A stretch of DNA of 35,186 bases from Dugesia japonica (taxonomy: Eukaryota), in contig MQRL01597604.1 in assembly GCA_001938525.1 (NCBI GenBank), forward strand, positions 1 through 35,186, given 5' to 3'. The position numbers were made by a program, and so were the translations under genes. Below the pieces are notes generated by a model. It saw nothing but the letters and a program-made list of their open reading frames with translations. It was not told the origin of the DNA and searched no databases. Positions 1 through 35,074 of this stretch are shown in pieces (position 1 is the stretch's first letter; each line of letters starts with the position of its first letter).

Positions 1-290
1 ATATCCAATCCCACAATACAATCAAAAACTAAATTCTGCATTACTTGCATAGGATGCATAAATCGAACATTTCCGCACTGCATTCTACAATCCAGTTCAC
101 CCACTGCATTTACGGCTTGTCCGGTTACCGTTAGCATTTGGATTCCTTCTCTACGCATTCTAGCTTTATCTACCTCATACAACACTCGTCCATCGATGAT
201 TGATCTACACGCTCCGGTATCGATCATACAATCTATTTCTCTACCATTAATTGTCAATTTTTTTAGTATCACCCTACCACCAGGGCATTG
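1..290 (-). pseudogene. pol: Retropepsin aspartic protease (start of pol, element A)
   Basis: Manual translation, not in the ORF track: GRVILKKLTINGREIDCMIDTGACRSIIDGRVL...LTVTGQAVNAVGEL...FDCIVGLDI. It has the D-T-G-A catalytic motif and a C-terminal I-x-G-x-D motif, and resembles the PR at 35008 (RILKDLKIDGRILSALLDTGA). Confidence 0.9.
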
Positions 291-1419
291 TCATTGGCGC
301 AAGGCTTCTGGTATCCTTGTCTTTTAACTCTTCACTATCAGATATTATACTAAAATTGGTATCTTCGGGTGGCGCCGTTCCAATAATTTTGGCATCTGTT
401 ATTCCACAAGATTTCTTTTTAGCATCATGCTCTGCCAGAACTCGTCATTTGAGTTCCTCAAAGTCGTGTTGTCTGCGTATTCGTTGCAATTCATCATTTG
501 GTTAGTAAATTAACTCTCAATTCCCTGCTCCACAACTTGATTGCCATAACTGCTTCCATGCTTTACTGTTCCTCCGTACTCTCCCGTTCCCGGATCTGTA
601 CTGTCGTTCCTTTTCACTCCGATATCGGTTTAATTTTTCTCCTTTCCTAGATTGTCTTTCATCGTCACTTTGATATTTATTAGATTGTTTGTTATTCTCA
701 CAGTGTTGTGCTCCCATTTGTGGGTAACCATAACAATCAACTTCACTTTTGCCCTCGTGCTAATAGATATTATCTTTCACAATATTTCCATCTGATTGTT
801 GATTCCGATAATTCACTTGGAATACTTTCCGGTTCTTTCCATATCCGTAACTCGGTACCACTCTTTGTCTTTGTCGTTTGCCAAAAAAATCATCATCGCT
901 GTCATCACTACTACTATCTTGTCGTTTCCATGGTTTAAATACATCAAAATAGGATGTCTTCCTTGCTTTTCGCTTTCTCATGTCATCACATATTGAACGA
1001 ATTTGTTCAACTATCTGCCTATTACTTCCACCCACCTGACTCAGGTATTGTAATAACCTTCTGGTATTATGTAAGTCATTTGAATGACTATTGAGTANNN
1101 NNNNNNNNNNNNNNNNNNNNNNNNNNNNNNNNNNNNNNNNNNNNNNNACTTGGAATACTTTCCGGTTCTTTCCATATCCGTAACTCGGTACCACTCTTTG
1201 TCTTTGTCGTTTGCCAAAAAATCATCATCGCTGTCATCACTACTACTATCTTGTCGTTTCCATGGTTTAAATACATCAAAATAGGATGTCTTCCTTGCTT
1301 TTCGCTTTCTCATGTCATCACATATTGAACGAATTTGTTCAACTATCTGCCTATTACTTCCACCCACCTGACTCAGGTATTGTAATAACCTTCTGGTATT
1401 ATGTAAGTCATTTGAATGA
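291..1419 (-). pseudogene. Low-complexity charged linker between the glycoprotein tail and the protease
   Basis: ORFs 1041-1367, 760-1194 and 517-717. 1367 is in frame with glycoprotein ORF 1509-1913, and 1194 is in frame with 717. R/K/S/D-rich; product unknown. Confidence 0.45.
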
Positions 1420-1429
1420 CTATTGAGTA
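815..1429. repeat. ~283-bp near-identical direct duplication flanking an N gap (815-1097 / 1148-1429)
   Basis: The copies differ only in a poly-A length (7 vs 6), so this is probably a scaffolding overlap artefact. Confidence 0.8.
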
Positions 1430-3307
1430 CTACTCATTTAGCCCACGCTGGGAAAAATCCCATAATCATTTTCCATGACATTTTCCATGACATTTTCCTT
1501 TCCTTCTTTTATAAATCGAAACAAGCTAATAATTGTGTCAGCAACACTTTTATTATTTGTACTATAAAAATTATTCCCAATAATCCTGCCATTGCTTGTC
1601 CGAAAACTATAAATCGACCCCACATCTTCTTCATTACATTTGCTGTTGCTTGTTGAAAGTGATCTGGTGATAATAATAAATCATGATTCGGTCTCCACTC
1701 TGACGTAAATACCCCTCCAGCGACATACACAATGTTCGATAAAATTTGCATTCGTTTGACCCGAAATAACATGTGCTCTCTGGCCTTCTCCAGATCCTCC
1801 AATTTGTAGATACCACCTTCTGCTAGATTTAATGGGTTAAAAGTCTCAGTTTTATTGCTGGAAAATTTCTCACGAAGATATCTGCAGGTAGTCTCTCCAG
1901 AAAACTTATCCATTTATTGTTAGCCATTTTTAAATAAGGTCCAAATAAATTAGAACAGTTCAGTTTATTTGGTAAGAATCCTTTTGGTGATATTACTCTT
2001 GTAATAGGTTGTACATATCTTTTCTCTCCCATGTAGTTGATTTCCATCTCATTATAGCAAGTTTTCTCTCTCGATAAAATTGCTTCCACTCTCCTACATC
2101 GATAACTGAACATAACTTCGCCCACAATACGCCCAAATTGACCTTTTTCTAATGGTAACACTGGTGTTTAATTGTTGGGGTTTGTTATCGCTGTTACTAA
2201 TTTTGTCCGTAGTATTTCGCGATTTAACAAACAGTCATTATAGATCAGATCATGATACATTCGCTCCATAGATTGCTGCGCCAGGTGGAACAGGGTGTCC
2301 ACCTTATTATTCAGGTATAAATACAACTTATTATCTTGAGTCATAACTCCATCTCTCGCCTTTTCCAGTCTCCGCTTTGATACAAAGATTCTATTATAAT
2401 TCGTTTTATATGCAATTTCTCCACATTTGGCCTCGGATTTCTTACGGATTAATCTAATCATATCATTTGCATCGGTTGCTATTAATACGGTTGGTGTATC
2501 AGACCACAAGAGCGCTTCCTCCTTTGTTTTTATTTCCACATTTACTTTTCCAAAGGCTGGCATTCTCTCCTCTTTAACTGAGTAAACAATTTTCTTTCCT
2601 CGATACTCATCTAACAAAACCTCTCTAAGGAATGTCATTGTACATTCATGATGATTAACTTGATATACTAAGGTTGATTCTCCCGTATTGCAGGAATTAT
2701 CTGAGGCCAAACACATTGAATACATCTTCATCTTTTTGGTCGTTGTATCAAATTAAGCATCGAATTCCTTTAGTTCTGCTCTATAACTTTCTATGGCCAC
2801 AACTACAGTTGCATAGCCTAAAGGACTAGTGTATTTTCCTTGTACAGAAGTTCATGTTGCGTCCGAAATCGATCCTGCTGCGAATAAACGGGTTTGTACT
2901 ATTTGACCTCCTTTGGCATTAATTATCTTTCCTTCACCCACTGGTATTTTACCGGTTGTAAATCCAGATTCGCATTGTTGTCTTGTGAGGAGAACGGGTA
3001 TTACTTCCATACCTGGGGATATGACTGCCGAATAACTACTTTTCCCACACCAATATACAAATACTTGCATTGTTACTTTACATTCCCTCACCTTTGTCTT
3101 GTAATAATCAGATTCTTGGTACACAAAATAACTCATAGACTTTTGTACTACTTCCAACTTTTCTGGATTTGCTTCTGGACATTCTTCTGCATCGATTAAT
3201 GAATACACCGNNNNNNNNNNNNNNNNNNNNNNNNAATCATAAGCTCGGATTGCCGCACTTCGGCCCATTAAGAACATTAATATTAACACCATGAACATGG
3301 ATTGCAT
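1420..3307 (-). pseudogene. env: Chuvirus-like (Jingchuvirales-type) envelope glycoprotein, env-like
   Basis: Signal peptide MQSMFMVLILMFLMGRSAA, then IRAYD..VYSLIDAEECP, RECKVTMQVFVYWCGKSSYS, LTRQQCESGFTTG, GEVMFSYRCRRVEA..CYNEMEINY.GEKRYVQPITRVI..CS, TM FIVFGQAMAGLLGIIFIVQIIKVLL and a second hydrophobic segment SWKMIMGFFPAWAK. ORFs 2852-3577, 2168-2731 and 1829-2161 share a frame; there is one frameshift into 1509-1913. Confidence 0.8.
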
Positions 3308-3560
3308 ATTGCTGGTTCTTGTGCTGTGATTCGTTTCGGTTCCGTACTCATCGATATAATCTTTTAATAATTCATGAACCCGTTCATTTAATTTGTGACT
3401 TGAATTAGTTTTTGGTTTCATCTTTTCGATTATCCCATTCCACCCTCCGACAGTTACTAAGATNNNNNNNNNNNNNNNNNNNNNNNNNNNNNNTATTGGC
3501 AGGTTACTCAATTGAAATTTCATTCCTGGCCTACAACGAGCCACTGCTATTTGCGTTTGC

Positions 3561-5021
3561 TTAACCAAATATTTCAAATGCTACTAGTAATTTTGGAATT
3601 GTCGGGTGATTCGACAGTACCCCTTGTACTTCTTTTTCCATCGTTTCTCGATCCTTGAGGACTGTATGTTTTGCAACTGGTAATTTGACTATGATTGGTT
3701 CTAATATCGCTGCTAATTGTTTGCTCTCCGTTGACAAAATTGTATTTCCAATCCATAGTTTTAAATCTGGATACAGCGCTATTAATATCTGATGTACTCG
3801 CTTCTCGGTTGGTAACGTGTGTGATTCTAATTTCTCCATTATATCCGACGATAATTCGGCCATTTTTTTTATCTCTTGTTGGTTTTCGTCTGGTTGTACC
3901 ACCTGCTGTTGCTCCTTTTTGTCGACCTCTGGGTTTTTTATCCATCCACGTCTCCGCATCACGCATCACTCGTTGATGAGTTTCATTATCCGTCGTATCA
4001 TCCGTGTTATCCGTTGTCGTTTTCACTTCTTCAAACATTGCGGCAGGTGGTATTATTTCGTCTGCAATCTCGTCCAATCTAACTGATATATCGTCGTCTT
4101 CCAGATCTAGGTCCACTTGATTTGGATTAAATTTTCCTGACTTATTTAGTTTCGTTAATATTTCCGACTCTGACGTAGTCACTGGTTCCATTTGGGTTAT
4201 TTCAATCTCATCATCATCATCATCACGATCTAGAATCTGTTCGACTATTTCATCTTCTGTAGTATTTTCTGTTGTCGACTCCTTGATTGGCAATTTTCTT
4301 GGTCGTCCCCTTGATTTGACAACTACTTCATTCGTGTTATTCGATGTCATTGGTTGTACAAACGATTTTATCGATGTCTGACTTGATCCTAGTCCCGATT
4401 GCAATTTATTTTTAATCTCCTTGGCTGGTAATTTTCGTCTGATCAATCGTTTACTACCTTCCGGTTTGATGTACATTTTATTCTCTACCTTTTGTCGGAT
4501 ATCTAATGTTCCGATGATATCGTTGTTCAATAATTCCCGATTATTCAATAGTAGTACATAGGGTGGCTCGAATGATATTTTAGATTTCATCTGTTCTACT
4601 GTCTCGTACGCCAATTCGAGATTCTTGTTTAATGACCATCTGGTTCTACGGTTCTGAAGCTAAATATAAGTGGTAATACTTCATCTTGTTCGCATTTTCT
4701 CCATCTTGATATCAGTTGTTTAAATTGCTTTGGTCTCCATTTGCATTCCTCTTTACATCTGGATATTTTGTAAGTCAATGACGTCAACTCCTCAATTGAC
4801 AAATCGCTCTGCAATAATTGATCCGCTATATGCTCCCCACTGGTTTTGTTTATACTTTTCTCTTGAATTTTTGATATAAATTGATTTACCATATCGGCAG
4901 AATCTCCGCTACACTTTTTCGATTTACCAGTCATTACCACTACCATTTCTTGTGATCTACTCAACTCTTGATTTGATTTGTATTGTCGATGTAATCTCGG
5001 TCTCTGCTGTATTACCGCCAT
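3561..5021 (-). CDS. Unknown accessory region with an AT-hook (SRGRPRK, 4295-4315) and an acidic tract
   Basis: ORFs 4629-5021, 3574-4614 (346 aa) and the overlapping 3561-3962. RGRP core, DRDDDDDEIE tract. Confidence 0.5.
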
Positions 5022-6499: not shown

Positions 6500-7171
6500 T
6501 TAAAATTTTGGTAATTCACTTGACTGGATTACCAGTGGTGCCCTCTTTTCTGACAACGGCGCGATATATTTGATTTGGCCTTTATTCAACGAAATCATTA
6601 TATTTTCAGTTGTTCTAAAATAGAAATGAGGCCAAATTAGTTCGTTATATAAACGCATTCTCCGACTCTCTAACAACGTAATTACCATAGTAGTTCCAGG
6701 TTTCAGACCATATTCATAAATATGGGCATTTGCATCATTGATGCTAACTACTGACACCGGTGTACAAACAATATATTCGCCTATGAGTTTTGCCCACTCA
6801 ACATCCTCCAATGCATTGAGTAAATCTTTTACCGTCGTTCTTTTCGGTTTTAACACTCGTGGGATGTTCCACTTTGTCGCCACTGGTACTTTCTTCAAAA
6901 CCTGATCCATCGTAATGTATGCAGTTCTATCTTAATCCGGTCTCCAGGCTTCCACTGCTTTGATTTTATAATCCTCCACGGTTGTATTTTCTAATAACTC
7001 TTTCTCATACTCAGGAATTATTGGTCTCCACTTTTGATTGGTCATCGTGTCCATTTGTTCTGGCTCCGCTAATTCAACCAAATGATTCATTAATTTCCAA
7101 TAAGCCTTTCTGGTTAATTCATCTTTCAATAATTTAGCATTCTTTATGACTGTTTCTACATAATTATACAC
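6500..7171 (-). pseudogene. Repeat unit 2: helical module plus ubiquitin-like domain
   Basis: RKAYWKLMNHLVEL..KWRPIIPEYEKELLENTTVEDYKIKAVE (6932-7171) is in frame across one stop with TTVKDLLNAL..EYIVCT..NDANAHIYEYGLKPGTTMVITL (6500-6910). Confidence 0.6.
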
Positions 7172-7247
7172 TCTTGTTTTGNNNNNNNNNNNNNNNNNNN
7201 NNNNNNNNNNNNNNNNNNNNNNNNNNNNNNNNNNNNNNNNNNNNNNN

Positions 7248-7936
7248 CTCTTGTTTTTCGGGTCATTGGCTGTCTGATCTCCTTTACCACATCCGCCAGA
7301 AATCCTTGCTGTAATTTACTCATTAATTTGGTTGTAGTTGTTGACTTCGTTCGCAATAGCACTATGTATTTGTGATATTTCTTTTCAAATGATTTTACTA
7401 TTTGCTCGGTCGTTTTGAAATCCAAATAATATCACAATGGTCGTTTAATGCGATGCATTTCTACTAAATCTATTAATTTTATTGTTGTTTTACCTGGCCA
7501 GACTCCNNNNNNNNNNNNNNNNNNNNNNNNNNNNNNNNNNNNNNNNNNNNNNNNNNCTTTCAATAATTTAGCATTCTTTATGACTGTTTCTACATAATTA
7601 TACACTCTTGTTTTGATCGCGCTGGATCGCTTTTGGTTATCATACTGATTTGAGCCATGGTATTTTCTGTTTTCGATGCTCCTCTTGTTTTTCGGGTCAT
7701 TGGCTGTCTGATCTCCTTTACCACATCCGCCAGAAATCCTTGCTGTAATTTACTCATTAATTTGGTTGTAGTTGTTGACTTCGTTCGCAATAGCACTATG
7801 TATTTGTGATATTTCTTTTCAAATGATTTTACTATTTGCTCGGTCGTTTTGAAATCCAAATAATATCACAATGGTCGTTTAATGCGATGCATTTCTACTA
7901 AATCTATTAATTTTATTGTTGTTTTACCTGGCCAGA
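7248..7936. repeat. Identical duplicated blocks between N gaps (7248-7506 repeats ~7681-7940; ~7123-7181 repeats ~7557-7615)
   Basis: Identical ORF translations at 7156-7425 and 7590-7859 bounded by Ns; likely an assembly artefact. Confidence 0.75.
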
Positions 7937-8520
7937 CTCCATATTTCGATATAAGTGCTTTGCATAATCTTGTTCTATCACTCTGTTTCGAGAACACAAA
8001 ACATACTCTCTGATCGGCTTTGGCCATGCCAGCTCATTTACTGCTTGTAATAATCCACTCACAGTAGTATCCTTCAACACAATTTTCCTAGTATCTCTTG
8101 ATATTTTAATTCGGTTGAATCTTCTTCTAGGGCTGGCTCGTAAGCATTAATACTATAATCATCTGGTTTCGTGTGACTACGAATTTCCTATTCATATTCT
8201 TGCGCCTGAGAAAATCACACTTCACTGGTGTACACATCTAATTCACTGGACTCCATTAACTCCAACATATGGTTCATCATCGCCCAGTATGCTTCTCGGT
8301 AGACTACTGCCTTGAATGTTTGAATCATTGTAACTTTATCCTCCACCTGTCTTGTTATCACTGCTCTTTTTGCTGTTAATTTTGCTGATAGTTCTACCTC
8401 CATTGGCTGAGCTCTCATCATATTTATTCGTCCTTGATTATTCTCTTGCTTTTGCATTCTCTCTCTAGCCACTTGCTGCTCCTCCAATTGTAATTGTAAA
8501 TATTCCTGCTCTTGTTTCAC
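7590..8520 (-). pseudogene. Repeat unit 1: helical module plus ubiquitin-like domain (frameshifted)
   Basis: REAYWAMMNHMLEL..V*FSQAQEYE*EIRSHTKPDDYSINAYE; DTTVSGLLQAVNELAWPKPIREYVLCSRNRVIEQD / LISKYGVWPGKTTIKL..PL*YYLDFKTTEQIVKSF. It aligns by eye with unit 2. Confidence 0.6.
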
Positions 8521-8757
8521 TTGTCAAATACTCGCTGCTCTGTTTCATCTTACCGTCGCTTATCTTGTTGCATTAGATTCACTTGTTGTTGATTTTGGTT
8601 TCGATTATTTTAAATCTGGTCCCTTAATCTATCATTTTCGTCCATTATTTTCCCAATGGCCTGGTTGTTTCTTGATTTATTATTGAAGTTTGTATTAGAA
8701 TTCCCTTAGCCCGATCTTTGACTATTCTGGAAACAATTCTTACTGGTGTGACCAGGT

Positions 8758-10060
8758 TTATTGCATTGGTGATTTTGTGATAAAGCAATTTTCCGATTTA
8801 TGCCCTGGTTTCTGGCAATTTGTACAGATCATTGCCGATCTGCAATCTCTGGCATAATGACTGAGTTTACCACAGTTATAACAGGTAATTCCCTGGGGTT
8901 GCTGCCACGATCCTTGTCTATTTCCTCCATTTGATCTCGAATTATTATTTGATTGTCGCGGTGGAGGTCTATTCTGACCAGGTGACAGCCCTCTCAATAA
9001 TGGTTGCGTTCTGGCAGGTAAAAAATCTGCAATTTTCGGTTCGCTTTTCTCTTCCTCTTTTTGCTCTTCAATTTTAAAAACACTTGCTTGTTTTTGATTC
9101 ATTTCCACCTTATGGGCTACCATTGCCGCATTTATCGCCATATCTACCGTCGTTGGCTGAGATAGATTTACCCATTTTTTTACTTCTGCATTTCTAAGCC
9201 CTTTAATAAAAATACCGAGCACCGTTGGATCATCCAACTTATCTTTCATCGCCACTTTCCCGAGTTTACGTAATTCTGTTGCGTATGCCTGAAAGGTTTC
9301 ATCTCTTAGTTGTCTTCAACCAATGAACACTTGAATTTCTTGTCCTTGCAACATTAATAGCTTGAAGGTTTCTAATAATACTTCCTTCGCCTTTTCCCAT
9401 GGATCAACGGGTTCTTTACTACAACTTATTTTATCCCAATAAATAGTTTTAGCTGAATCCTTCAAATATAAAGGTAATCAATCGGCGCCTCTCTTGTCAC
9501 TCCATTGACACGCTTGTATATGTATCCATAGGCTGCAATAAAATCATTTAATTTCTCCGGTTGTCCGTTAAAATAATCTCCATTAAACTCTGCTTTCTAT
9601 TCCGAACTCCGTTTTGATTTCTGTCCACTTGTACTCTTGTCATCATCTGACAATTTCGAATTCTCCTCGTTGTCTTTTTCTTTACCGGTGGTTGACATGG
9701 TATCAGTATTACTTGTTTCCAAACTTGATTCCGAGTACTGTCGAATTCTACTTGACGCTCGGGTTGTAGGTACACTATCACTAGCTGATTTAGATTCGTA
9801 TAAACTTTCTAGATCAAGGTCTTCTACCAAATTGGCTCTTGAAGGATTTGATTCGGTTATGGTATCAAATTCTCCTTGTACGTCGTCGTTAGACGGGAAC
9901 GAATTGGGTGATTTGGATGCTGAAATTGATAGAGATTGGTTGAATTGTCGAGACACTCTGCTGTAGGAGACCGATTGCTTTATTTTGGCTGGATTGGGTC
10001 GTTTAATTACAAATGATCTTCTATGTTCTGTACTCCCTCTAAAATTATATCCGGATTCCT
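8758..10060 (-). pseudogene. gag: gag of element A: Ser/acidic N-terminal region, capsid-like domain, two zinc knuckles
   Basis: YFNGQPEKLNDFI, LPLYLKDSAK, WEKAKEVLLETF, RQLRDETFQAYATELRKL, FIKGL; CYNCGKLSHYARDC and CTNCQKPGHKSENC. Confidence 0.88.
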
Positions 10061-10543
10061 GATTATCTAAGATTGTTTATTTGGTTGATTCTCAGATTGA
10101 TTGGTTTATCGAATTTTGGAATATTGGAATGTTGATCGTTTTGGTTTTCTGAAAATCAAATAATATTGCCCTACGGCATCTGCATGCATTCAAATATTAT
10201 TATCGCATTCATTAATTGACTACTTTTAACTACTTTTATCTACTGATTGATACTTCTTATTACTAATAACTACACTACGATACATTATCATACTTGATTT
10301 CTATTATTTTAGCAGCGTATTTACGTAATTTACTTTTATTACTCAATCATTTATTATACATAAGCAGCAATTTTAGTCGATTGTGTCAACTGAACTCCCC
10401 ACTTCAATATTTATTGTTCTGGGACAGCTCCANTCAGATTAGTGATTCCAATTATAATTTATATAGTTTACAACTTACAATATTCCCATACTAATTTGTC
10501 TGGGCATTTTCAGATGTGTCTTCGACACATTACTCCACTAAAC

Positions 10544-11074
10544 AGAACATTTCCGCCTGCTCTTGGCAATTTGTCCTCAGGACAAATTTCGCAAATTGAT
10601 CGATGCCCAATTTATCTCCCTTTAATTTCCCATAATAGAACACTCCAGCCGGTTCCTGTCAATTTATCTTCCAAATAAATTTTTTCCTAATTGACGATTA
10701 ATTCAATTCGACTCCTTTTCTCGCGTTTGGCAATCCCACCTGCCCCTGGTAGTTTATCCTCCGGATAAACTTTTAATATCAATTATCAATTACTTAAATT
10801 TAATCCAACCTTCATTTTGAACCAATTCCGCCTGTTCCTGGCAGTTTATACCCTTGATAAACTTACGTGACTAATCAATGATTCCATTATCTCCATTTTA
10901 CATTGTCCATGTATAGGAGCATTTAATCATTTTGATACCATTCATTTCTCTTCGATTCGTTTTCATTTGCTAATAATTTTAATTATACCTTTCCTTTTAC
11001 CACTTCACATTAGTACCCCTCAATATCTACAATGGAACTCTTGCGCCGGTTCCTGGCAAATTTCCTTGTGAAAT
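10544..11074 (-). ncRNA. Array of five structured cis-RNA units (hairpin plus H-type pseudoknot) in the leader upstream of gag
   Basis: Units at ~10544-10588, 10637-10682, 10729-10771, 10819-10863 and 11034-11074; the first four have a ~92-nt period. Compensatory changes are seen in all three helices (see findings). Confidence 0.65.
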
Positions 11075-11137
11075 CTTTTAAGTTCAAAGCTCTCCTCCCA
11101 TAATAAGTATCAATAAAATTCTCCTCAACTAATTCAT

Positions 11138-11220
11138 TTTAACTATACACTCGGACAGTTTTCATTACTTCTCCCAATTTAACTATATCCTCGGATCGTT
11201 TTGTTATGTCTCCCAATTAA
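11138..11220. repeat. Two imperfect ~40-bp tandem repeats
   Basis: tttaactatacactcggacagttttcattacttctcccaat / ttaactatatcctcggatcgttttgttatgtctcccaat. Confidence 0.6.
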
Positions 11221-14200
11221 ACGATAATTTCACAATTTCATTATTTCCGACCAGGTCTTCCTTAGTTCTCTTTTCGGTGGCCAACCGACAAAGTATCCGG
11301 AATGAATTACTGGTAATCAACTAGCTACTCCAATATTTGTTTCGATATATTTCATTTAATTCTGTCATCATTTTTCTTTCAACTAAATTTCAACCTTTTT
11401 ATACTAGTTTATTTGCTTTGAACACTCTCTCTATGTAGCCGGTAGTCTATTATTTCAGCTCCAGCTGGGCGACAATTTTGATCCTCAATTTACACTAATA
11501 ATTCACTATCTCCATACTTGAGTCAGTTGACAGTCTATTTTAATTCAGCTTCAACCGCTCACTAATGTAAAGGTTCTCAGTCAGGATCCCATGATCCAGC
11601 TGATGTGTAACTACGACGCTACCCGCGATCGCATTATCAAATATTTTTCCAAAAATAAACAACAATACTGATGCCACGCTTGAGGCTAACTATTGTATCA
11701 TCTTGTCAACACTGAGTCCTCTGATCGCCAGATACCACGGACAATTTGCGGCCTTGTCCTTCCGGGATTTTTCACCCTAAAATCTAAAACTCGGTAGAGC
11801 TACGGGTAGTTAGCTGTAGGGGCGCACTCACGCCAACCGAACGCCATAAGTGGTTAGCTTAATAGATGTGGTGCTCGTTGCCGGCTCCTTCCCCTGAAAT
11901 TCCTGAGTTTATCTCGCCTGGACTAAACTCCATTCTCCCGGCATGAAAGTCAGACAAAGTATCCAACTTCCGAGATCGGTACTCCTTATTCGAAGCGTCG
12001 AAGCTCGAATTCCTTCAAAGCATATCCACGGAAGATCTTCCACTCCAATAACTACTTCGAAGATTCTTGTCCAACAGTCAATATCAATTTCCATCATTTC
12101 AGTCATTAGACGATCATTGCAGCTGTCCCTTCAAAGTTGATCAGGCTTCTAGTTCCAGCTTACTAATCGCGAGCCCTATTCTCCAAAATGGCATCCACCA
12201 TTACGACATCTTTTTCTCGGGTAATATCACATATCTATGGTTACGCTCGAAATTGTCTCTCTCCAACTCACTACGATAAAATCTCCAACCATATTTATTT
12301 CTAAATTCAAAATTAATTATCTCATATGAAACCCTCAATTTAATCACAGCTAATATCAATTCACCCTACCATATTTAATTCCACCATTATTCAACTATTC
12401 GGTTATTGTTTAATATGACTCCGTAACCATAGAACCCCCCTGTTACACCTCTTCCCCATCTCCGTTCATTTGTCGATCGAATTCTCAGTTACCACTCACC
12501 TGGGTGGCCTCCCTGTGTTGACTGCCCGATACCCATCCTACTCTTCTTGATAAAGTATAGCAATTTCTTCTCGAAATACATTTCATTGATTATCTCCATT
12601 AAATTATTTCAAATCATTTGTCGCCTCATCTTCTCCGTAAATTCGGTTAGTTTCTCGTCAATCTCATTCATTCTCTAATCCCCTTGTATTCTCATTACTT
12701 TCGTTTACTATTACTCGATTATCGATACAATATCGATACTACTCAATTTATTCATTATTCATCAATAACATTTAGCATATCATTGCCGCTCAACTCTAGA
12801 ATACATCTCCAGTAAAGTCTCTCGTCACAATATTAAATATCATTGTCATTTATTACTCATCCTCCATTTATGTTTCATTTATGAGCTCATCTCCTCACCT
12901 CGTTCACTTTAATATTATTATTCGTTCTGATTCATTAACGCCTACGATAGGATACGTCTCGATCCATTAATTTACTCCCAACATTTCTTCTCAGCGGAGG
13001 TTCTAATCTCAATAGTTCTCGCTTTACTGCTCATTTACCTTTGAGTTATCGTCATCATCACTTCTACCTTATTCTGCTCTGCTTCATTTACATTTAACCA
13101 TCTCTTCAACCCATTAAAAATTTATAACTCGCCTTGTTGCCTGTTATTTACTCATTCATTGCTGCATAAGTTTCAATTGCGCTTCTGTGACTATATTATT
13201 ACTGCTAATTGATTTTCCCACTCCACAAACTCGCTTCTCGATATGGTTTTCTGCTGCTAAATGCATGTTAAAATTTATTTAATACCTGCCTCATCACTAA
13301 TAAACTATTAGTGCTGTTTCTTTTGATGTATAAACGTCACATTTCTTTTGACTCCCATCCAGTTTCTACTACTGTTATCTTCGTAGTCAACTGACCTGTG
13401 TTTCAATCTAATTTTCTCCGCTTTTATCTACAATCCATGCTGATTACTCAACAGATATTTCATGATCAGCTGTAACAGTTTAGTTTTGACGTTTTACTCA
13501 AACTGTCCGCCCTGATCATTGTTTATTTACCGATTTATTCTAATACGCGTTGCTCGAATTGAGGCTCTCCGAATGAGACGAGTTGCGAGATCCTCTTGCC
13601 AATCTCACCACTATGCTCATTCAAAATCACTCCATCATCATCTCATCATTATTCGTTTATTTATTATACTTTATTTAGTTTAATATTTATACCCGCGTTG
13701 GATGCTCCATAGCCCATAATCCGGAGATGCAGTGCGTGTGAGTTCTGGTTTCTCTCTCACACACACTTCACTTCCAAATCATTTGGTATATTCATATTCC
13801 TACACATTCGTTTATCAATTACTCATTAGATGTTTAATATAAGTCGATCTCAATACTCGGTGTGTGCAAGTTCTCATGACCCACTCTCACCCACCAAGCA
13901 TTTGAAACACCCTCTCATTTTTATCATTATCTCATTTCATATTTAAGTTAACTGATGCTCATGGTAAAATATTCTCGCTGTCGAATGAGAGATAGTCCAA
14001 CTCTTCGAACTCTCTGTCATTTAGCAGCTTGTTTATCTCACTCTATTTGTTGACGCTCATCATAATCTTTGCAACACCACCAAAAGACACACAATAACTC
14101 GATGCCTGTGCCGAATCGCGATACAACAATTTTGACGTAACGCTTTTACGCTATCTGTATACTCGTATAAATTCGTCTCTCAATCTTTTATTACCTCTCT

Positions 14201-15537
14201 AAACGCTCAAATTTTTTACTATTCGCATGTAAAGATCTCGTTATGTTTTGCTTGTATCGTGTTATGTTCCTCTTCTCTGCGTGTAGTTCTCGTATGTATT
14301 ATCGATTGTTTTCCTCAGTATTTATTTGAATGCGTGCTATNTTCNTACTCNTCTGCATGTCTGTATTAACCAAGGTTATGTACTAAACGAACTTAATACT
14401 TCTACTGTACTTTAATTTTACTTTAATGATTAATGTTTACGAGACATTTTTAAATTATCTATACTAAAAAATAAAATATCAAAACATTTCCATTTTTGAT
14501 TTAGTTTTAATACTCTAATTTATACCGTTTCGATACGAGTTAAAATTAATTATTTATAGTATAATAATCATTAAAAAAATAAAATATCTAATAATAACAA
14601 TATCTAAATAAAATATTCCAGCACTAAAATTATTATTCAAATATTACACAAAATTTACTAACAAAACTCTTTAAATAAAATTTACTCAACTCCTTTACAA
14701 AATATTACTACAAAATTTACTAAAAGCCTAAATTTTCTAAAATATTAATCAATTTATTTACCAAATTCTTTACTGAAAATCAAGTATAGTAGTACTGGTA
14801 ATGATTATAACTTAACAATAATAATAAATAAATATCGGACATTAAATTATCAAATTTAATGCGCAGTTAAGAGAACACTAATAAAATATTAGTGCGCAAA
14901 TGAAGAATATTATCAAATTATAAATCTTACAAGATCCGAGTGCCATTCCCATCGTCAAATTAACTGCATAATTTCCCAAATTTATCCGCATATTTGAAAC
15001 ATAATTTTAATAGTCAATGCTATTCAATTACAGCAATAATTTTTGGCAAAATTAATCATTTTCCATTCTAACATTTCAGCGTATTATCATTTCCGATTTT
15101 ACAAATGTGCATATCACAATTATATATCTCCTCGGCCGTTATTTGATCGTCGAATTTCATTAATTCATCAACATCCATTTGTTAATCGCTTTCCGCATTT
15201 AATTCGCACGTTGCATCTTCATTCATTTACAAAATTGGTTCTACTCGATTCATTATCGTTGTCATAGCTATATTTCATTTGTGATTGCATCATTAAAAAT
15301 TATTTTAACTAGATAGCCAAATTTAAAACTTAGTTTCCTTGAAAATAATAATGCATAAAAAAATGAATAAGTATCCCGGCTTAAAAGATTTATAACCCCC
15401 AAAACACTTGTTGGGTTTTTAGGATTTACAATAATCTAATATCTATATTTTCATAATCGAATATTGTAATCAATAAATAAATCTACTTTANNNNNNNNNN
15501 NNNNNNNNNNNAAAACCACAAGCGTTTGAGTCACCTC

Positions 15538-18500
15538 TGTGACATGCCCCTTATTTCCTCAGGTTCAGCGCGACTTTGTGGTATCGACCTTGCTCAGTAT
15601 TCCGTCATAGTGATTGCAAAATTTGAATCTGGCCATACATAACCATTATAAATGAGAAAAACAAACTAATGCGACATCGAAAAATTTTATTAATCTAATT
15701 TTCCGCATCCAAATCGACCGTGGTGTGGTTCACTCTGGACCTTTCAGGTGGTTCTCGATACAACAACCACAGCGATCGTAAATTAGCAAATGTCACCGCC
15801 TCGCGATCGGCATAAACTTTGATTGTATCAGCCATCAAATGGTTTGCTTGTTGTAGAGCCAACTCCTTCTCTTTAAGCTGTTGATGTTTGAGGTTGTGTT
15901 TGGTGGCCTGACTCNNNNNNNNNNNNNNNNNNNNNNNNNNNNNNNNNNNNNNNNNNNNNNNNNNNNNNNNNNNNNNNNNNNNNNNNNNNNNNNNNNNNNN
16001 NNNNNNNNNNNNNNNACTAAATTATAAGGAGAATTTTAATTATTTTATAATTGAAAATGATCTAAATTTGTAGACTACCTCATATCGCCCTTACTTGTGA
16101 ATTTATATATATTATACTATTAAAACCCGTGCCATATAAATATACAATGTCAAATTTCATAATTGGGACGTTTTCCGTCACAACCTCACCGCTATCTGCC
16201 ATTTCACTCGAGCAAAATGTCTCTATCAATCGCTTGCTCCTCAAACCACTAACACCGAATAAACATAAAATANNACTAAAATCGTTATATCAATACACTA
16301 CCACCTCTGCAGCATTTTTTACTTTACTTGTGACCTACATATCACACTCTCTGTTCATTCGTATCACTCTGATCCATCAGATTACGGATTATTTCCCGCT
16401 CCTCGATCTCATCGTCTATCTCTGTAGCACTACTGAGTGAAAAAACACGAACGATTTTTGGCGAAGTGCCAGATAGCTCTCCATGAAGTTGTTTGATCTG
16501 TTTCTGCAGCGACTTTCAAGCTCGTTCCAACTGACACTCTAACGCATTTATTCTATTATTTTTTACCACCAACTGTAATCGGACCGTCTCGTTATCCGCN
16601 NNNNNNNNNNNNNNNNNNNNNNNNNNNNNNNNNNNNNNNNNNNNTATCATGGTCGGCACTTCGTTCCACTCAATATAATATCGGCCTACCTCGTCAATGT
16701 AGGGCCAGATATAACGAGGCCTTTGGAGATTGCGTCTACTTTTAACAATCTAATAGACCATAAACAATTAAATAAAGTAATGAAATAACACGAGCATTAA
16801 ATTGACAACATCATTGTGGGCTAATTGTGGAATGATTTTCTTCGGCCTATGGCCTAACATTTGGCTTCCAATGTTATATGACGCGAACCAGGAAAGATGA
16901 GCCTTAATTATGCATCTTTTCTCGTTCCCGTCATTGTCTTATGCTAGAATGGATTTTTCGTAATCATTATCAACAATTAATCGAAAATAATTTAGTCGGA
17001 CGATTACTCAAATTTAGGGTTGATTTATTATTCTTTTAAATAATATTTTACCTGAATTCATTTTATCACCTTAACGGAGTAAATATAATGAATACAGAGA
17101 TAGGTGAGATATTTTATTATTATTATCGTGACTGATATCGTCAAACCTTAAAGTGTGAGATATTTTATTGATAATGCAATAATGAATATTTAGAAAAATT
17201 GTACTTAATTATCAAATGCAGAATGAATACTATGGTAAATCAATGAAAATTATTTTATTATGATGATTTTATTAACATTAAATAGCTTGACTAGAACAAT
17301 AAAAAATAAAAATAAAAAAAATACTTAGTGACCAAAACACGAATGGACCCACTAATTTCCCATGAATTCAAACTCATAGCATTTTAAACTCAAATAACCA
17401 AACAATTACTCCCGAGATCGATCAAGCTCCGAATTCCTGCTAACTCATAATTTACAGATAATCCTACCAGATGCATTTTCTGGATTTGCTCTACGATGAC
17501 TCTCATTTCTTTTCATTCAGGTTATTCGTGGATAAGTAGAACCTCATAATATTTAGACACTCATTACTGATCGGAATATATCCGGAGCTCGATATATCCC
17601 AAAGAACTCAAATTTGGGCAATGGCACTCGTTTACATAAATTCCAAAAATGGGGTAAAACTATATATAAAGAACAAAAATTACTTTTCGTTTATCCAGAG
17701 TCCAAGATCCAACATTGAGAAATACGCGTTGAGTTATTAGCTATAAATTTAAACAAAGAATCTTTAATACTCCNCTATAAAATTTAACACAAGAATTTTT
17801 TTTAATACTCTGACTGATTGCTTCGCGTCAGCCCGTTTTATTTCCCCTAGGATAGAGAAATTATTTGGTTCTCGATTAGCCTGCAAATAGTAATGCGTAT
17901 TTCATTATCTGGATTTCTGATTAGCTGCCACAGTCCTAAATTCGGTGAGCATACCTCAGTGTTTCTGCACACGAACTCGGACTTTTGAATTTTGGTAAAT
18001 TTCAGTCATCACCTCATGTGACCTATGTGATGCATCTGTTAGTTTCTAGGCAAAGTCCTTGTCTGAACTTCTGGTGAATAATCAGTTTCTTTGTTTATGT
18101 ATGACTGCTATCATCCGATTCAGACAAGGTAAAAATATTACTGGACCAAATTAATTACTTCTCTAATAACATTAAACGTTAATTAGCGTTATTTATAATA
18201 AATAAAATGGGTCGTAGAGGCCCTTCTAATATATTATTATATTATTGTAGATTATTTTTATTATTTAATTCCTCATTCCCTTTCCACTCTTATAAATTCT
18301 ATTTCCGTATGATAAAATTTGGGTCCTCTACGCCCGAGTTTCGATTTTCGATATTTTAAGAATTAATTTTATAATAATTATACTAATAATAACTACATAA
18401 TAATAATAATAATAATTTCGCATATAATAAGCCATTTTCTGGTCCAGCACATCTACTTTTCCCTCTATTGTCCATATTTTCCTCGTTTATTTTCACACTT

Positions 18501-18700
18501 TACGGAGCTACAATTTTCTATTCTTGAATGTGTTTCAACCCAACACATATATTATTTTCATTAAATTCTATACAGAACTACTTAGATTTAATATACTTAA
18601 TATACTCAATTTGATCAGTCATACACAAAATTTTTGTAAGTATACATAATCTCGCACCATTCTAATCACATTTCAATACAATTATATCACTTTTATTCAA
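15538..18700 (-). repeat. Putative long 5' LTR of element A (distal end undefined)
   Basis: The minus strand reads ...GGGGCATGTCACA|GAGGTGACTCAAACG, an LTR-like CA end followed by an imperfect PBS-like (T)GGTGAC. No second LTR is in the window to confirm it. Confidence 0.3.
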
Positions 18701-25322: not shown

Positions 25323-25742
25323 TTGATGGATATTGCTAAATTTCTAAACATTAAAGTAAATGTAATGATGAATCCTGATATGAATCCAGTAAACTGGCCA
25401 CCAGTAAACTGGCCACCAGTAAACTGTCCACCAGTAAACTGGCCAATTAATTGGATAATTAATTATCAAAATAAAAAAGAAAAAGGAAGTCATTGGGTTG
25501 CATTAGTTGTTATTAAAAGTGATCATCAAGATGGTTATTATTATTATTTTGATTCTTATGGACTACCTCCTTTAGAATTTCTTGATGTTAAGAAGATTAA
25601 ATGGAATAAAACACAAGTTCAACCATGGAAAACAAAAATATGTGGAGTATTATGTATTTATTTTATTTACTGTATGAATAAAGGAATTCCATTTGATGAT
25701 ATTATTAAAGAGTTGAAGAATACATTTAAANAATGGTTATAG
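25323..25742 (+). CDS. Adenain-like (C5) cysteine maturation protease
   Basis: IINYQ..GSHWVAL, YYFDSYGLPP, QVQ..TKICGVLCIYF give the His-Asp-Gln-Cys arrangement. Confidence 0.9.
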   Translation: MMDIAKFLNIKVNVMMNPDMNPVNWPPVNWPPVNCPPVNWPINWIINYQNKKEKGSHWVALVVIKSDHQDGYYYYFDSYGLPPLEFLDVKKIKWNKTQVQPWKTKICGVLCIYFIYCMNKGIPFDDIIKELKNTFKXWL

Positions 25743-25762
25743 TCTAATATTTTATATAATAA

Positions 25763-26983
25763 ATGACTCACAGTTTTTCTAATACAATAATGAATAGATT
25801 TGGTGAAACTTTAGATAGTAAAAATTCTTCTGAATTACTAGAAGCTTTTGATGGTAAGGTAGAAAGAAAAATTAGATCAAAATTAAAAATACATGAAGAA
25901 CAAGAAGAAATTAAAAATAGAAAATATGATGATAGAAAATATATTGATAATAAGATTGGAAACATAGTTACTAACGTGATTGATAAAGAAATTAAAAAAC
26001 TAACCGACAACTTTAGACAACAAATTATTAAACAACAGGTTACTATAGATACTTTAATAGAAAGTAATAAATTAAATTTAAGTGATAGGAAAAAAGAATT
26101 TATTAATCTAAAAAGTGAAATGTTGAATCAATTAAAAGATTTGAAAGATTTTAATATTATTCAAGTTGATAAATTAAATAAACAAGTTAAAGATTTAACA
26201 AGTAAGTGTAGTGAAGAGAAATGTAACAAGTTGAAAGAACAAGTAGATAAACTAAAATATGAATTTGATTTTTATGTTCAAACTAAAAATAATCCTCTAC
26301 CTAAATTAGAAAGAAAATTAATGTCATTAAAGTACATGTATAAAAAAGAAAAAGAATATCTTTATACTATTATATTAAAGTTGAGGCAGGAAAGAAGTCA
26401 AAAGAAAGTTTATTCAGCTGATTTACTTAAAACTTTAAAAGATGGAATTAATAATTATATTCCATATACATTAGATTATGTAATAAAATACCAAATTAAT
26501 AAAGAACGTATGATATTTTTTTTATCAATAGAAAATGTTATAGAAGAACTACCATGTGTTTTAATTTATAAATTAAAAAAATTTACTTGTTATAGAAGTG
26601 GAGTATTTATTGATAAGGGAGAAAATAACAAGTATTATCTACTTGATGAAAATATGGTATTAAATTTTAAATTATTAAAAGAAGAAAAGGGATTATTTTT
26701 TGTATTTCAATTTGGTATTGAAAGTAAAGATATCCATCCTGGTCTAATCATTCATGAAACTAATGAAATTTTAATAAAAAAAGAATCCAATCCAGTAGTT
26801 TTTAAAAACTTTAAATTTAAAACAGAGTTAACTGATAGTGTTGTAAATTATCTTCATATAAATACTTTTGAAGTAGATAGAGATGAAACAAAATGGTTAA
26901 ATTTTTCAATAACCATTAGTAGTGATACTTATTTTAAATCTCTTTCTATATTAGCCCGTCCAAATTTTAATTTAATAAAATGA
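25763..26983 (+). CDS. Unknown 406-aa protein: coiled-coil N-terminal half, beta-rich C-terminal half
   Basis: Intact ORF; its stop overlaps the next ATG (ATGA), a virus-like packing. Confidence 0.7.
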   Translation: MTHSFSNTIMNRFGETLDSKNSSELLEAFDGKVERKIRSKLKIHEEQEEIKNRKYDDRKYIDNKIGNIVTNVIDKEIKKLTDNFRQQIIKQQVTIDTLIESNKLNLSDRKKEFINLKSEMLNQLKDLKDFNIIQVDKLNKQVKDLTSKCSEEKCNKLKEQVDKLKYEFDFYVQTKNNPLPKLERKLMSLKYMYKKEKEYLYTIILKLRQERSQKKVYSADLLKTLKDGINNYIPYTLDYVIKYQINKERMIFFLSIENVIEELPCVLIYKLKKFTCYRSGVFIDKGENNKYYLLDENMVLNFKLLKEEKGLFFVFQFGIESKDIHPGLIIHETNEILIKKESNPVVFKNFKFKTELTDSVVNYLHINTFEVDRDETKWLNFSITISSDTYFKSLSILARPNFNLIK

Positions 26984-27342
26984 ATGACAATAATCAAGAT
27001 AGTAAACTATATCGTGATCAAGATAGTAAACTATATCGTGATCAAGATAGTAAACTATATCGTGATCAAGATAGTAAAATATACGATAGTAAAATATACG
27101 ATAGTAAAATATACCCAGATTTAGATTTAGATTATACTGATAAGATTACTGATAAGATTACTGAAAGAAGTACTATAGAAGATTTAAAAAATAAATTAAA
27201 TAAAACTAGGATAAGGGATTTTGAAAGTGATTNNNNNNNNNNNNNNNNNNNNNNNNNNNNNNNNNNNNNNNNNNNNNNNNNNTAGTGATACTTATTTTAA
27301 ATCTCTTTCTATATTAGCCCGTCCAAATTTTAATTTAATAAA

Positions 27343-28285
27343 ATGAATGACAATAAATTGTATGACAATAATCAAGATAATAATCTATACGATAGTAAAC
27401 TATACCCTAATTTAAATGACAATGAAAGGTCTACTGAAAGATATACTGAAAGGTCTACTGAAAGGTCTACTATAGAAGATTTAAAAAATAAATTAAATAA
27501 AACTAGGATAAGGGATTTTGAAAGTGATTTAGAATGGATAGATGATAAACTAAAACATTATAATAAATTAAAAAGAAGATGGAGTAGATTTGATAATGGA
27601 ATTAGGTTTGCAGATGTAGGAATATCAACTATAGTTGGAATAGCATCAGGAAGTATAATATTAATGTCCACTTTATCTTTTACAGTTCCATTAATTGTAA
27701 CTGGAATAGTAACTGGAATACCAATAATATATTCTATTGCTCATGGATCTTTAAGAGTTAGTTTAATTAAAAATAGNNNNNNNNNNNNNNNNNNNNNNNN
27801 NNNNNNNNNNNNNNNNNNNNNNNNNNATATCAACTATAGTTGGAATAGCTTCTGGAAGTATAATATTAATGAGTACTTTATCTTTTACTGTTCCATTAAT
27901 AGTAACAGGAATTGTAACTGGAATACCAATAATATATTCTATTGCTCATGGATCTTTAAGAGTTAGTTTAATTAAAAATAGAATAAATAAATATACATTA
28001 AAAATTAAATTACTTGAAGAAACAAAAAATAAATTATTCATCTTTCATACAAAAGCTTTGGAAGATAATGAATTAAGTAATGAAGAAATTAAAACTTCTA
28101 AAGATATAATTAATAATCTAAAGACCCAGTTGGCTGGAAACCAGTTGGCTGGAAACCAGTTAATGAAACAGTCAACAAAGCAACAACCAGTTGACCAGTT
28201 GGCTGGACAGCTTGAAGAATTTAGTAAAACATTTCCAATATTACTAAGCCAGTTAACTAATCAGTTGGCTGCCCATAAAAAATAA
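27343..28285 (+). CDS. Polinton PX-like two-TM membrane protein (variant 5' copy at 26980-27232)
   Basis: LKHYNKLKRRWSRFDN, two Gly/Ile-rich hydrophobic segments, then KLFIFHTKALEDNELSNEE, recalled as the Maverick PX pattern. Split by N gaps. Confidence 0.6.
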
Positions 28286-30559: not shown

Positions 30560-31185
30560 TAGTAGTTTAAAGGCCGAATTACATAAAAATTGGGAAGATG
30601 CACTACAAAATATAAATTTTGCTTTGAATGCAACAACACAGAAAATTATAAGATGTAGGTTTTTTCTCAAAGAAACTTAAAACACACCAAATTCGTTATT
30701 CTACTTTTGATCGAGAATTATTAGCGATGCATGACTCGATCAAACAATTTTAACACTTTCTAGAAGGAAGAAAATTCATAATTTATACTGATTACAAACC
30801 TCTAGTAAACGCAATGCAAATGAAACAACCGTCACCAAGACAANNNNNNNAGTTAAACTATATATCCCAATTCAATTGCATCATCAATTACATTGCAGGT
30901 TCCGCAAACATTGCAGCTGACACACTATCCAGAATCGAAAGGGACGTCAACTCAATAGAATTCAAAGATGGCTTCAACTTAGAAGAAATTAACGAGAAAC
31001 AAACTGAAACAATAAAAGAAATGCCAGCTAAAAACTCTTTAAAGCTCACAAAAGTAAATGACATCTGGTGTGGCATGCAAAACGAAGGAAACATAAGGAT
31101 CCTTCTACCAAAAGAATATAGAAGTGAATACATAACCAGGATTCGCAACAATCATCATCCCGGAAACAAATCAACATATATTTAC
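30560..31185 (+). pseudogene. pol: Gypsy pol fragments: short integrase-like piece, then RNase H and the start of the integrase zinc domain
   Basis: KNWEDALQNINFALNAT; VGFFSKKL..YSTFDRELLA..HFLEGRKFIIYTDYKPL..YIAGSANIAADTLSRI; NHHPGNKST. Confidence 0.8.
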
Positions 31186-32520: not shown

Positions 32521-32663
32521 TTTTTGCTCGTCTTCATTTTGGTATTACTAATAACAGTTGATCACCTTCCTTCATCATTAACCACTCATTTACTACGATA
32601 AATCTGCCACCTCGTTTCTTTAAATGTTCCTTCATCGCTTTGTTACACTCCACTTTGCTCAAA

Positions 32664-33960: not shown

Positions 33961-34063
33961 TTCCGTATTTCTTTTTCACCAATACTACTGGAAATTGTCA
34001 TGGTGAACAACTTGGCTCGATTACTTTACATTTTAGCATCTCGTCAATTTTTTCCTCACAGAT

Positions 34064-35008: not shown

Positions 35009-35074
35009 ATAATCCTTCTTCTTTGTTCGAGTAATTTTAACTGTATTTCCGATTTCTGGTTTGAGTTCAACTCG

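What the first reader, a model, noticed from the sequence alone, without database searches (positions are those of the whole stretch)
10544..11074. Periodic array of covarying hairpin + H-type pseudoknot RNA units in the 5' leader
Seen on the sense (minus) strand: five units, four of them at a ~92-nt period with dissimilar spacers. Hairpin A covaries: AAUUUGUCC/GGACAAAUU (10568-10588) vs AGUUUAUCC/GGAUAAACU (10751-10771). It is followed directly by a short stem GCC-7nt-GGC, which becomes ACC-7nt-GGU in unit 3 (one mismatch in unit 2). The 7-nt loop pairs 3-7 nt downstream and also covaries: AGAGCA/UGUUCU, GGAAC/GUUCU, GGCA/UGCC, GAAC/GUUC, GGAAC/GUUCC. G-U pairs work only on the minus strand, which is the element transcript. 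Inference: a selected, multimerised cis-RNA about 0.5 kb upstream of gag. Candidates are a packaging/dimerisation signal, an IRES module for the very long leader, or an exonuclease-blocking (xrRNA-like) fold.
Basis: partly seen in the sequence, partly recalled or inferred. Interest (0 to 1): 0.82.

Follow-up and report, generated by a model that had tools for sequence, protein, structure and literature searches.

The report
Pseudoknot array in retrotransposon RNA leader
A giant virus-like jumping gene carries five to seven small knotted RNA folds in a row just ahead of its capsid gene; their base pairing has been preserved by selection, and they most likely help the element pick out its own RNA for packaging, though that role is untested.

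Summary
Five units lie on the minus strand at 10544-11076. Each is a 7-9 bp hairpin followed directly by an H-type pseudoknot (3-bp stem, 1-nt loop, 6-bp stem, 5-nt loop). They sit in the ~5.3-kb internal leader of a decayed Burro-like gag-env-pol Ty3/gypsy element, ~0.47 kb before gag. I recovered 343 units from 95 loci; copies carry 5-7 units. Stem columns carry inherited variants in 5 of 102 cases versus 36 of 104 spacer columns (p=5e-8), while post-insertion decay is equal. Pairing covaries (p=0.002-0.004 with one real copy per unit class) and established G-U pairs outnumber A-C 9:2 on the sense strand. So this is very probably a selected RNA structure (~0.88). No Rfam family matches; tRNA-like-structure and flaviviral xrRNA membership tests fail. 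A sister family shares the colinear leader and an apparent non-AUG gag start but lacks the array, which argues against an IRES role. Best guess: a family-specific, multivalent Gag-recognition/packaging signal (0.4), working like the tandem FMDV pseudoknots; nuclear export is next (0.18). Function is inferred, not shown.

The parts
11034..11076 (-). Unit 5: 7-bp hairpin A (11076-11058), S1 11057-11055/11047-11045, loop 11054-11048 pairing with 11039-11034 (5 bp)
10819..10863 (-). Unit 4: hairpin A 10863-10843, S1 10842-10840/10832-10830, S2 partner 10824-10819; duplicated 2-3x in some copies
10727..10771 (-). Unit 3: hairpin A 10771-10751, S1 (A-U version) 10750-10748/10740-10738, S2 partner 10732-10727; carries three of the compensatory pseudoknot changes
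10637..10681 (-). Unit 2: hairpin A 10681-10661, S1 with one mismatch (subfamily trait, 18 of 77 copies), S2 partner 10642-10637
10544..10588 (-). Unit 1: hairpin A 10588-10568, S1 10567-10565/10557-10555, S2 10563-10558 with 10549-10544
15409..18545 (-). 5' LTR of the host element (TG...CA ends); unique flanks upstream and solo/3' LTR ends in other copies
15370..15402 (-). Primer-binding site, tRNA-Pro-like; interrupted in the window copy
   Evidence: tRNA-Pro-like sequences seen by eye; ARAGORN called none
11430..11560 (-). Motif B: two bulged hairpins with covarying outer stems, shared with the sister family; a second structured leader module
10149..10165 (-). Conserved T-rich YAG, candidate splice acceptor (AG kept in 31 of 36 copies); use not shown
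8761..10076 (-). gag (broken in this copy); frame opens about 123 codons upstream of the first AUG, near 10070; two CCHC knuckles
1512..3580 (-). env-like glycoprotein in pieces (Monjiviricetes_fusion, PF24664)
3..290 (-). Aspartyl protease; RT follows in a family copy

Best explanation
The array is a selected cis-acting RNA module of the full-length transcript of a Burro-like envelope-bearing Ty3/gypsy element. SHOWN (sequence level): the units arose by tandem duplication of a ~92-nt block; the spacers then diverged to randomness while hairpin A, S1 and S2 kept pairing on the sense strand during active replication; unit number varies from 5 to 7. INFERRED: each unit folds into a coaxial 16-18 bp stack (hairpin A / S1 / S2) that displays purine-rich loops, and several units give an avid, family-specific landing pad for the element's own Gag nucleocapsid knuckles. 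This would sort genomic RNA into particles (a Psi-like packaging signal), as the tandem pseudoknot region does for FMDV. It lies upstream of a conserved candidate splice acceptor, so it would be absent from a spliced gag-env-pol mRNA if that site is used. Probability that it is a selected sense-strand RNA structure ~0.88; that its job is Gag recognition/packaging ~0.4.
For: Selection: common alternative bases in 5 of 102 stem columns vs 36 of 104 spacer columns among 52 copies (p=5e-8); internal:terminal tree changes 42:187 vs 135:287 (p=2e-4); rare-variant rates alike, 0.035-0.060 vs 0.051. Covariation: 8 of 17 pairs change on both sides, 92.4% of cells paired vs 87.1+-0.6 shuffled and 32-49% slid; one real copy per class, S1+S2 p=0.002-0.004, hairpin A p=0.04. 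Strand: G-U 9 vs A-C 2. Position between PBS and gag. Family specificity: none in 20 sister-family loci, 7 of which span the orthologous interval; that interval holds 22-nt UG-rich repeats instead, and UG repeats are good nucleocapsid ligands (recalled, no call). Two deletions that remove the array are each single-copy among 40 scored candidates (weak). Analogies: FMDV has 2-4 tandem ~48-nt H-type pseudoknot repeats in its 5' UTR, needed for infectious virus and holding a packaging signal (PMC9203018, PMC11734982); the CaMV purine-rich leader packaging signal is virus-specific (PMC5902531).
Against: No binding or packaging data. The array lies 4.3-4.9 kb from the PBS, whereas retroviral Psi elements are usually close to it (recalled). 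A viable sister family does without it. Hairpin A loops differ between units, so any protein contact must be structural or in the pseudoknot. Three of the pseudoknot compensations fall in a single unit class, the structure was derived from these same sequences, and R-scape could not be run. S1 alone is not significant with six classes (p=0.17), so S1 and S2 could be alternative hairpins rather than a simultaneous pseudoknot. Use of the candidate splice acceptor is not shown.
Confidence: 0.4

Rival explanations
1. Nuclear export or localisation element for the unspliced genomic RNA (CTE/MusD-MTE-like), multimerised to raise avidity for a host export adaptor.
For: Same selection evidence. Lies upstream of a conserved candidate acceptor, so it would mark intron-retaining RNA. 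The MusD transport element uses a pseudoknot and kissing loop (PMC5767303 passages).
Against: A host-factor element should be kept by the sister family, which lacks it; motif B, which both families share, is the better candidate for a host-factor site. No Rfam match.
Confidence: 0.18
2. Translation module (IRES part, shunt element or enhancer) that delivers ribosomes to the non-AUG gag start across a leader that cannot be scanned.
For: 149 AUGs in 5221 nt of leader; the gag frame starts at a conserved Ile codon in strong context rather than an AUG; the 3/6 pseudoknot has the stem lengths of a viral tRNA-like acceptor arm (PMC7749636); non-AUG starts follow shunting in RTBV (PMC5902531).
Against: 12 AUGs lie in the 473 nt between array and start. 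The sister family has the same start region and candidate acceptor with no array. Splicing to the candidate acceptor would leave a 78-nt AUG-free, A/C-rich leader and need no IRES.
Confidence: 0.12
3. DNA-level repeated protein-binding sites (enhancer/insulator, like the Su(Hw) repeats in the Drosophila gypsy leader; recalled), the 'stems' being palindromic binding sites.
For: All three stems are inverted repeats in dsDNA; the ~92-bp period is kept across diverged spacers; purifying selection alone does not distinguish DNA from RNA.
Against: Double-sided G-C/A-U swaps in all three helices and the sense-strand G-U excess are not expected of a DNA motif; three interleaved palindromes in pseudoknot order would be a coincidence.
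Confidence: 0.08
4. Exonuclease roadblocks (xrRNA-like) that stop 5'-3' decay after decapping or small-RNA slicing in the long leader, leaving a stable gag-env-pol fragment.
For: Tandem pseudoknots upstream of a coding region; some non-flaviviral xrRNAs lack an obvious ring-knot (PMC11929477 passages).
Against: No helix closes a three-way junction around hairpin A and S1 (6 of 343 units); a two-stem H-type pseudoknot gives no ring for 5'-end threading (inference).
Confidence: 0.07
5. Dimer-stabilising or reverse-transcriptase pausing/template-switch module (loop of one RNA pairing with the S2 partner of the other).
For: Unit number varies and unit 4 is often duplicated, so recombination occurs here; a Ty1 pseudoknot lies near the dimer interface and is needed for transposition (PMC5767303).
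Against: Loops are not self-complementary; fixed 1-nt and 5-nt linkers fit an intramolecular H-type fold.
Confidence: 0.07
6. Neutral amplified repeat whose self-complementarity is accidental.
For: Single-unit folding z-scores are weak, -2.1 to +0.3; the sister family lacks it.
Against: Seven-fold deficit of inherited variants in stems with equal decay rates; cores conserved while spacers are random.
Confidence: 0.02

Closest known systems
FMDV 5' UTR tandem pseudoknots PK1-4 (PMC9203018, PMC11734982; passages read)
   Same: Duplication-born tandem ~45-48-nt units with small H-type pseudoknots in a long 5' leader, variable in number, covarying; the best functional analogy (packaging).
   Different: Picornavirus, no homology claimed; FMDV has 2-4 abutting units with 4-bp stem and 3-4 bp pseudoknot next to poly(C). 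Here 5-7 units with a 3/6 pseudoknot, a stacked 7-9 bp hairpin and ~47-nt spacers.
Valine-accepting tRNA-like structure, T-arm plus acceptor pseudoknot (PMC7749636; passages read)
   Same: Hairpin directly followed by a 3-bp/6-bp pseudoknot (the 3/3/6 arrangement of ~30% of TLS-Val).
   Different: Stack is 16-18 bp not 12; no T-loop, D or anticodon arm; internal, with no 3' CCA end; repeated.
Retrotransposon pseudoknots: Ty1 5' pseudoknot and MusD transport element (PMC5767303; passages read)
   Same: Pseudoknot-containing cis RNA elements of LTR retrotransposon genomic RNA.
   Different: Those are single, large or long-range folds; this is a local 45-nt unit repeated 5-7 times far from the PBS.
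Flaviviral xrRNA (PMC11929477; passages read)
   Same: Tandem occurrence; loop-to-downstream pseudoknot.
   Different: No three-helix junction or ring; located in a 5' leader.
Burro / GAG-ENV-POL gypsy elements of flatworms (PMC6431247 section 7; PMC13524379 passages and section 14)
   Same: Host element: long LTR, two-knuckle gag, extra domains, mononegavirus-type fusion glycoprotein in frame between gag and protease.
   Different: Neither text, in the parts read, describes leader RNA structure (0 occurrences of 'pseudoknot' in the main text of PMC13524379); BIR/ankyrin/MATH domains were not detected here.

Membership tests
Any Rfam 15 family | Covariance-model score at gathering threshold | tested here: not met
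   best hits E 1-9, far below gathering scores, unrelated families
Viral tRNA-like structure (TLS-Val) | Hairpin followed by 3/5 or 3/6 acceptor pseudoknot | tested here: met
   3/6 pseudoknot after a hairpin
Viral tRNA-like structure (TLS-Val) | 12-bp T-arm plus acceptor stack | tested here: not met
   Hairpin A is 7-9 bp, total 16-18
Viral tRNA-like structure (TLS-Val) | Conserved T-loop | tested here: not met
   T-loop motif (recalled) in 0 of 343 hairpins
Viral tRNA-like structure (TLS-Val) | Anticodon arm and 3'-terminal CCA | tested here: not met
   Internal position; bases after S2 are not CCA; ARAGORN none
Flaviviral class 1 xrRNA | Three-helix junction closed by P1 | tested here: not met
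   Adjacent 3-bp closing helix in 6 of 343 units; a looser test finds non-adjacent 3-mers in three of six classes only
Flaviviral class 1 xrRNA | Xrn1 resistance | not testable with these tools
   Needs a bench assay; RNA reads too thin to show ends
FMDV-type tandem pseudoknot packaging region (works like; not a homolog) | Tandem duplicated small H-type pseudoknots in a 5' leader, variable number, covarying | tested here: met
FMDV-type tandem pseudoknot packaging region (works like; not a homolog) | Required for encapsidation | not testable with these tools
   Only indirect: two array-less deletions are single-copy
Retroviral Psi / dimer initiation site | Between PBS and gag on unspliced RNA | tested here: inconclusive
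   Between PBS and gag yes, but 4.3-4.9 kb from the PBS; splicing not shown
Retroviral Psi / dimer initiation site | Palindromic kissing loop | tested here: not met
   17 of 343 loops hold a self-complementary 4-mer
Burro-like GAG-ENV-POL Ty3/gypsy (host element) | env in frame between gag and protease, RT downstream | tested here: met
   Order; gag and following ORF share a frame in 11 of 18 copies covering both, env end and protease in 7 of 12
Burro-like GAG-ENV-POL Ty3/gypsy (host element) | BIR, ankyrin, MATH, BCL2, dUTPase-like accessory domains | tested here: inconclusive
   No significant Pfam hit on the broken pieces; HHpred not available
Troyka LTR retrotransposons | CG...CG termini (PMC12440569, abstract only) | tested here: not met
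   Ends are TG...CA

The most novel reading that the evidence does not exclude
The units are a new class of compact 5'-3' exonuclease block and/or ribosome-recruiting module, without the flaviviral ring junction. After the 5-kb leader is decapped or sliced by host small RNAs, they would leave a stable uncapped gag-env-pol RNA that starts translation at the conserved non-AUG codon: an RNA-structure counter-defence in an animal retroelement.
Probability: 0.1. Interest if true: 0.87.

Novelty: new variant of a known kind. Interest (0 to 1): 0.62.

Why it matters
Little is known about how envelope-bearing invertebrate gypsy elements recognise their own RNA or express gag across multi-kilobase leaders. 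A 45-nt, selected, repeated pseudoknot unit that is present in one family and replaced by simple UG-rich repeats in its sister is a small, directly testable handle on that question. If it is a packaging signal it converges on the FMDV tandem pseudoknots in an unrelated kind of element. The same leader also holds a second conserved hairpin module and an apparent non-AUG gag start.

Tried and rejected
Rfam scans found nothing. A unit pattern had 0 exact matches in viral and in metagenome contigs; these collections hold little animal DNA and the pattern is sequence-specific, so this says little about distribution. Model R1 and a sequence-free descriptor found no array in 20 sister-family loci; only 7 span the orthologous interval. 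The genome as a whole was not scanned with the covariance model, so distant look-alikes in other families remain open. RNA: no RNA holder listed; four runs laid on 8300-14300 gave 2, 153, 10 reads and 130 contig records, no pile-up of ends and no joint at the candidate acceptor: too thin to use either way. A third hairpin in the spacers was not consistent across classes. Spliced-leader AUG in frame at the candidate acceptor was rejected: stops intervene and phase varies. The donor-like site at 12499 keeps a full donor in only 8 of 35 copies. Self-cleaving ribozyme (HDV-like, hammerhead) was considered from recalled motifs and dropped: purine-rich 7-nt loop, no Rfam hit. A protein search with the gag piece among longer proteins found nothing (weak). 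A genome pattern for motif B was mis-sized and gave 1 match, so motif B has no genome-wide count. Earlier scan findings: none returned. Literature searches that found no description of this array: (open-access library only). Supplements were not opened; the element lists of PMC13524379 may include this family.

Full report
Observation. The minus strand of 10544-11076 holds five units as described. A covariance model made from 28 family units scores them at 31-67 bits and nothing else in the window above 15 bits (four of the five were in the training set, unit 5 was not). Spacings are 215, 92, 90, 93. The four evenly spaced cores are 62-71% identical, while their spacers align no better than shuffles (z 0.4-1.8). 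Pseudoknot-free folding of single units is unremarkable (z -2.1 to +0.3), so the case rests on comparison of copies.

Context. The units lie in a decayed LTR element on the minus strand. Its LTR runs 18545-15409 with TG...CA ends, unique upstream flanks and matching solo or 3' ends in other copies. A tRNA-Pro-like primer site follows, interrupted in this copy (ARAGORN called no tRNA in the 8 loci checked). Then come ~5.3 kb of leader, gag with two CCHC knuckles, ~5 kb of unassigned ORF pieces, a Monjiviricetes-type fusion glycoprotein and a protease, with RT downstream in a family copy. Gag and the next ORF share a frame in 11 of 18 copies covering both, and the env end and protease in 7 of 12. 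This matches the Burro architecture of planarians (PMC6431247, section 7 read) and the GAG-ENV-POL order reported for flatworm, nematode and bryozoan elements (PMC13524379, passages and section 14). The host is therefore probably a flatworm; that is inference.

Copies. The array region has 55 matches from 40 scored candidates, and a unit pattern has 517 genomic matches against 0 for the control. From fetched loci I extracted 362 unit matches, dropped 19 that lay more than 14 differences from any reference unit, and kept 343 in 95 loci. They fall into six positional classes. One subfamily has a sixth unit 128 nt downstream, and several copies have unit 4 two or three times. The geometry is fixed: hairpin A 7-9 bp, no gap, S1 3 bp, L1 one A, S2 6 bp, L3 5 nt.

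Selection. In 52 copies of the unit 4-3-2 block, common alternative bases occur in 5 of 102 stem columns, 5 of 33 loop columns and 36 of 104 spacer columns (stems vs spacers p=5e-8). Rare variants, which reflect decay after insertion, run at 0.035-0.060 in stems and 0.051 in spacers. Internal to terminal tree changes are 42:187 in stems and 135:287 in spacers (p=2e-4). The cores were thus constrained while the element was replicating.

Structure. On 28 hand-picked units, 8 of 17 pairs change on both sides; 92.4% of cells pair, against 87.1+-0.6 shuffled and 32-49% when slid (pseudoknot only on 40 units). Relatedness inflates these numbers, so I repeated the test with one real copy per class: S1+S2 p=0.002-0.004, S2 p=0.008-0.028, S1 alone p=0.17, hairpin A p=0.04. 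Established non-Watson-Crick types are 9 G-U, 2 A-C and 3 other mismatches against 81 Watson-Crick; rare variants are 125 G-U to 132 A-C (p=0.027). This favours pairing in the sense RNA over DNA palindromes. Caveats: three pseudoknot compensations sit in unit 3, the model was read from these sequences, some subfamilies tolerate a broken S1 or terminal S2 pair, and simultaneous formation of S1 and S2 is inferred from its textbook H-type geometry.

Sister family. A gag search found relatives at about 47-58% identity. In 20 of their upstream regions neither the model nor a sequence-free descriptor found an array. Seven span the orthologous interval, and the leader is colinear on both sides of it. 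There the interval holds 22-nt UG-rich repeats. Both families share motif B, a bulged hairpin whose outer stem covaries (275 of 300 cells paired vs 249+-3, 60 distinct types), a T-rich YAG just upstream of gag, and a gag frame that opens right after a stop about 123 codons before the first AUG. The codon before the conserved D-N is AUA or AUU in 35 of 37 true matches (3 of 40 rows were off-target), with A at -3 in 36 of 37 and G at +4; 8 of 14 copies are open for 101-130 codons above the first AUG, or 7 without the window copy. A non-AUG start is the simplest reading and has precedent in RTBV (PMC5902531 passages); it is not shown.

Mechanism. The leader has 149 AUGs, which invites an IRES reading, but 12 AUGs separate the array from the likely start and the sister family manages the same start without it. 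A host-factor role should also be conserved, as motif B is. A module that is selected, multivalent, variable in number and family-specific fits best a ligand that changes with the family, namely Gag. I put Gag recognition/packaging at 0.40, export or localisation 0.18, translation 0.12, DNA element 0.08, exonuclease block 0.07, dimer or RT role 0.07, neutral 0.02. Two array-removing deletions are single-copy, as a cis requirement predicts, but most deletions are single-copy anyway. Against packaging: the distance from the PBS and the complete lack of binding data.

Comparison. No Rfam family matches. It works most like the FMDV leader: 2-4 duplicated ~48-nt H-type pseudoknots needed for infectious virus and holding a packaging signal (PMC9203018, PMC11734982, passages). 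The 3/6 pseudoknot after a hairpin recalls the TLS-Val acceptor arm (PMC7749636 passages), but stack length, T-loop, anticodon arm and CCA end are all missing. The flaviviral xrRNA junction (PMC11929477 passages) is absent (6 of 343). Retrotransposon pseudoknots in Ty1 and MusD are single and larger (PMC5767303 passages). Six literature searches found no description of such an array in an LTR element; the library is open-access only and supplements were not read.

Verdict. A real, selected and apparently undescribed RNA module in a known kind of element; function inferred. New variant of a known kind, interest 0.62.

Noticed in passing
window 11430-11560 (-); L142:1170-1335; L143:570-740: Motif B: 2-4 bulged hairpins with a fixed inner part and A-rich loop and a covarying outer stem rich in sense-strand G-U pairs, shared by both families. 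More deeply conserved than the pseudoknot array; candidate host-factor or export site.
   Followed up: partly
window ~10070 (-): Gag frame opens about 123 codons upstream of the first AUG at a conserved Ile codon in strong context in both families; likely non-AUG initiation. The window copy is altered at this codon.
   Followed up: partly
window 10149-10165 (-); L142:2238; L143:2774: Conserved T-rich YAG followed by a 78-nt AUG-free, A/C-rich stretch before the likely start; candidate splice or trans-splice acceptor, use not shown.
   Followed up: partly
L142:1970-2130; L143:2535-2700; L144:1777-1940: Sister family has 22-nt UG-rich tandem repeats where this family has the pseudoknot array.
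   Followed up: partly
window 11909-12270 and 12450-12561 (-): Leader segments 70-88% identical between the two families, with no long ORF; unexplained conservation.
   Followed up: no
window 11135-11200 (-): Two ~25-nt related hairpin-like repeats 42 nt apart, just upstream of unit 5 (seen).
   Followed up: no
window 30814-35186 (-): The pol at the right end belongs to the same family (84-90% DNA identity to copies) and begins about 200 nt downstream of where the left end stops in element coordinates: tandem copies or a scaffolding artefact.
   Followed up: partly
window 34757-35186 (-): A second pair of CCHC-like knuckles and a second aspartyl-protease motif lie between the first protease and RT, so the family seems to carry two proteases.
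   Followed up: no
window 25326-28285 (+): Cluster of ORFs with a weak adenain/Ulp1-like protease hit (E 9e-4) and short tandem repeats; possibly a Polinton-like insert.
   Followed up: no
L193: An LTR-adjacent primer site of another element extends into most of a tRNA-like sequence, as if more of the primer tRNA had been copied.
   Followed up: no
window 815-1429, 7123-7940, 26920-27981: Exact duplications flanking N gaps are probably assembly artefacts.
   Followed up: no
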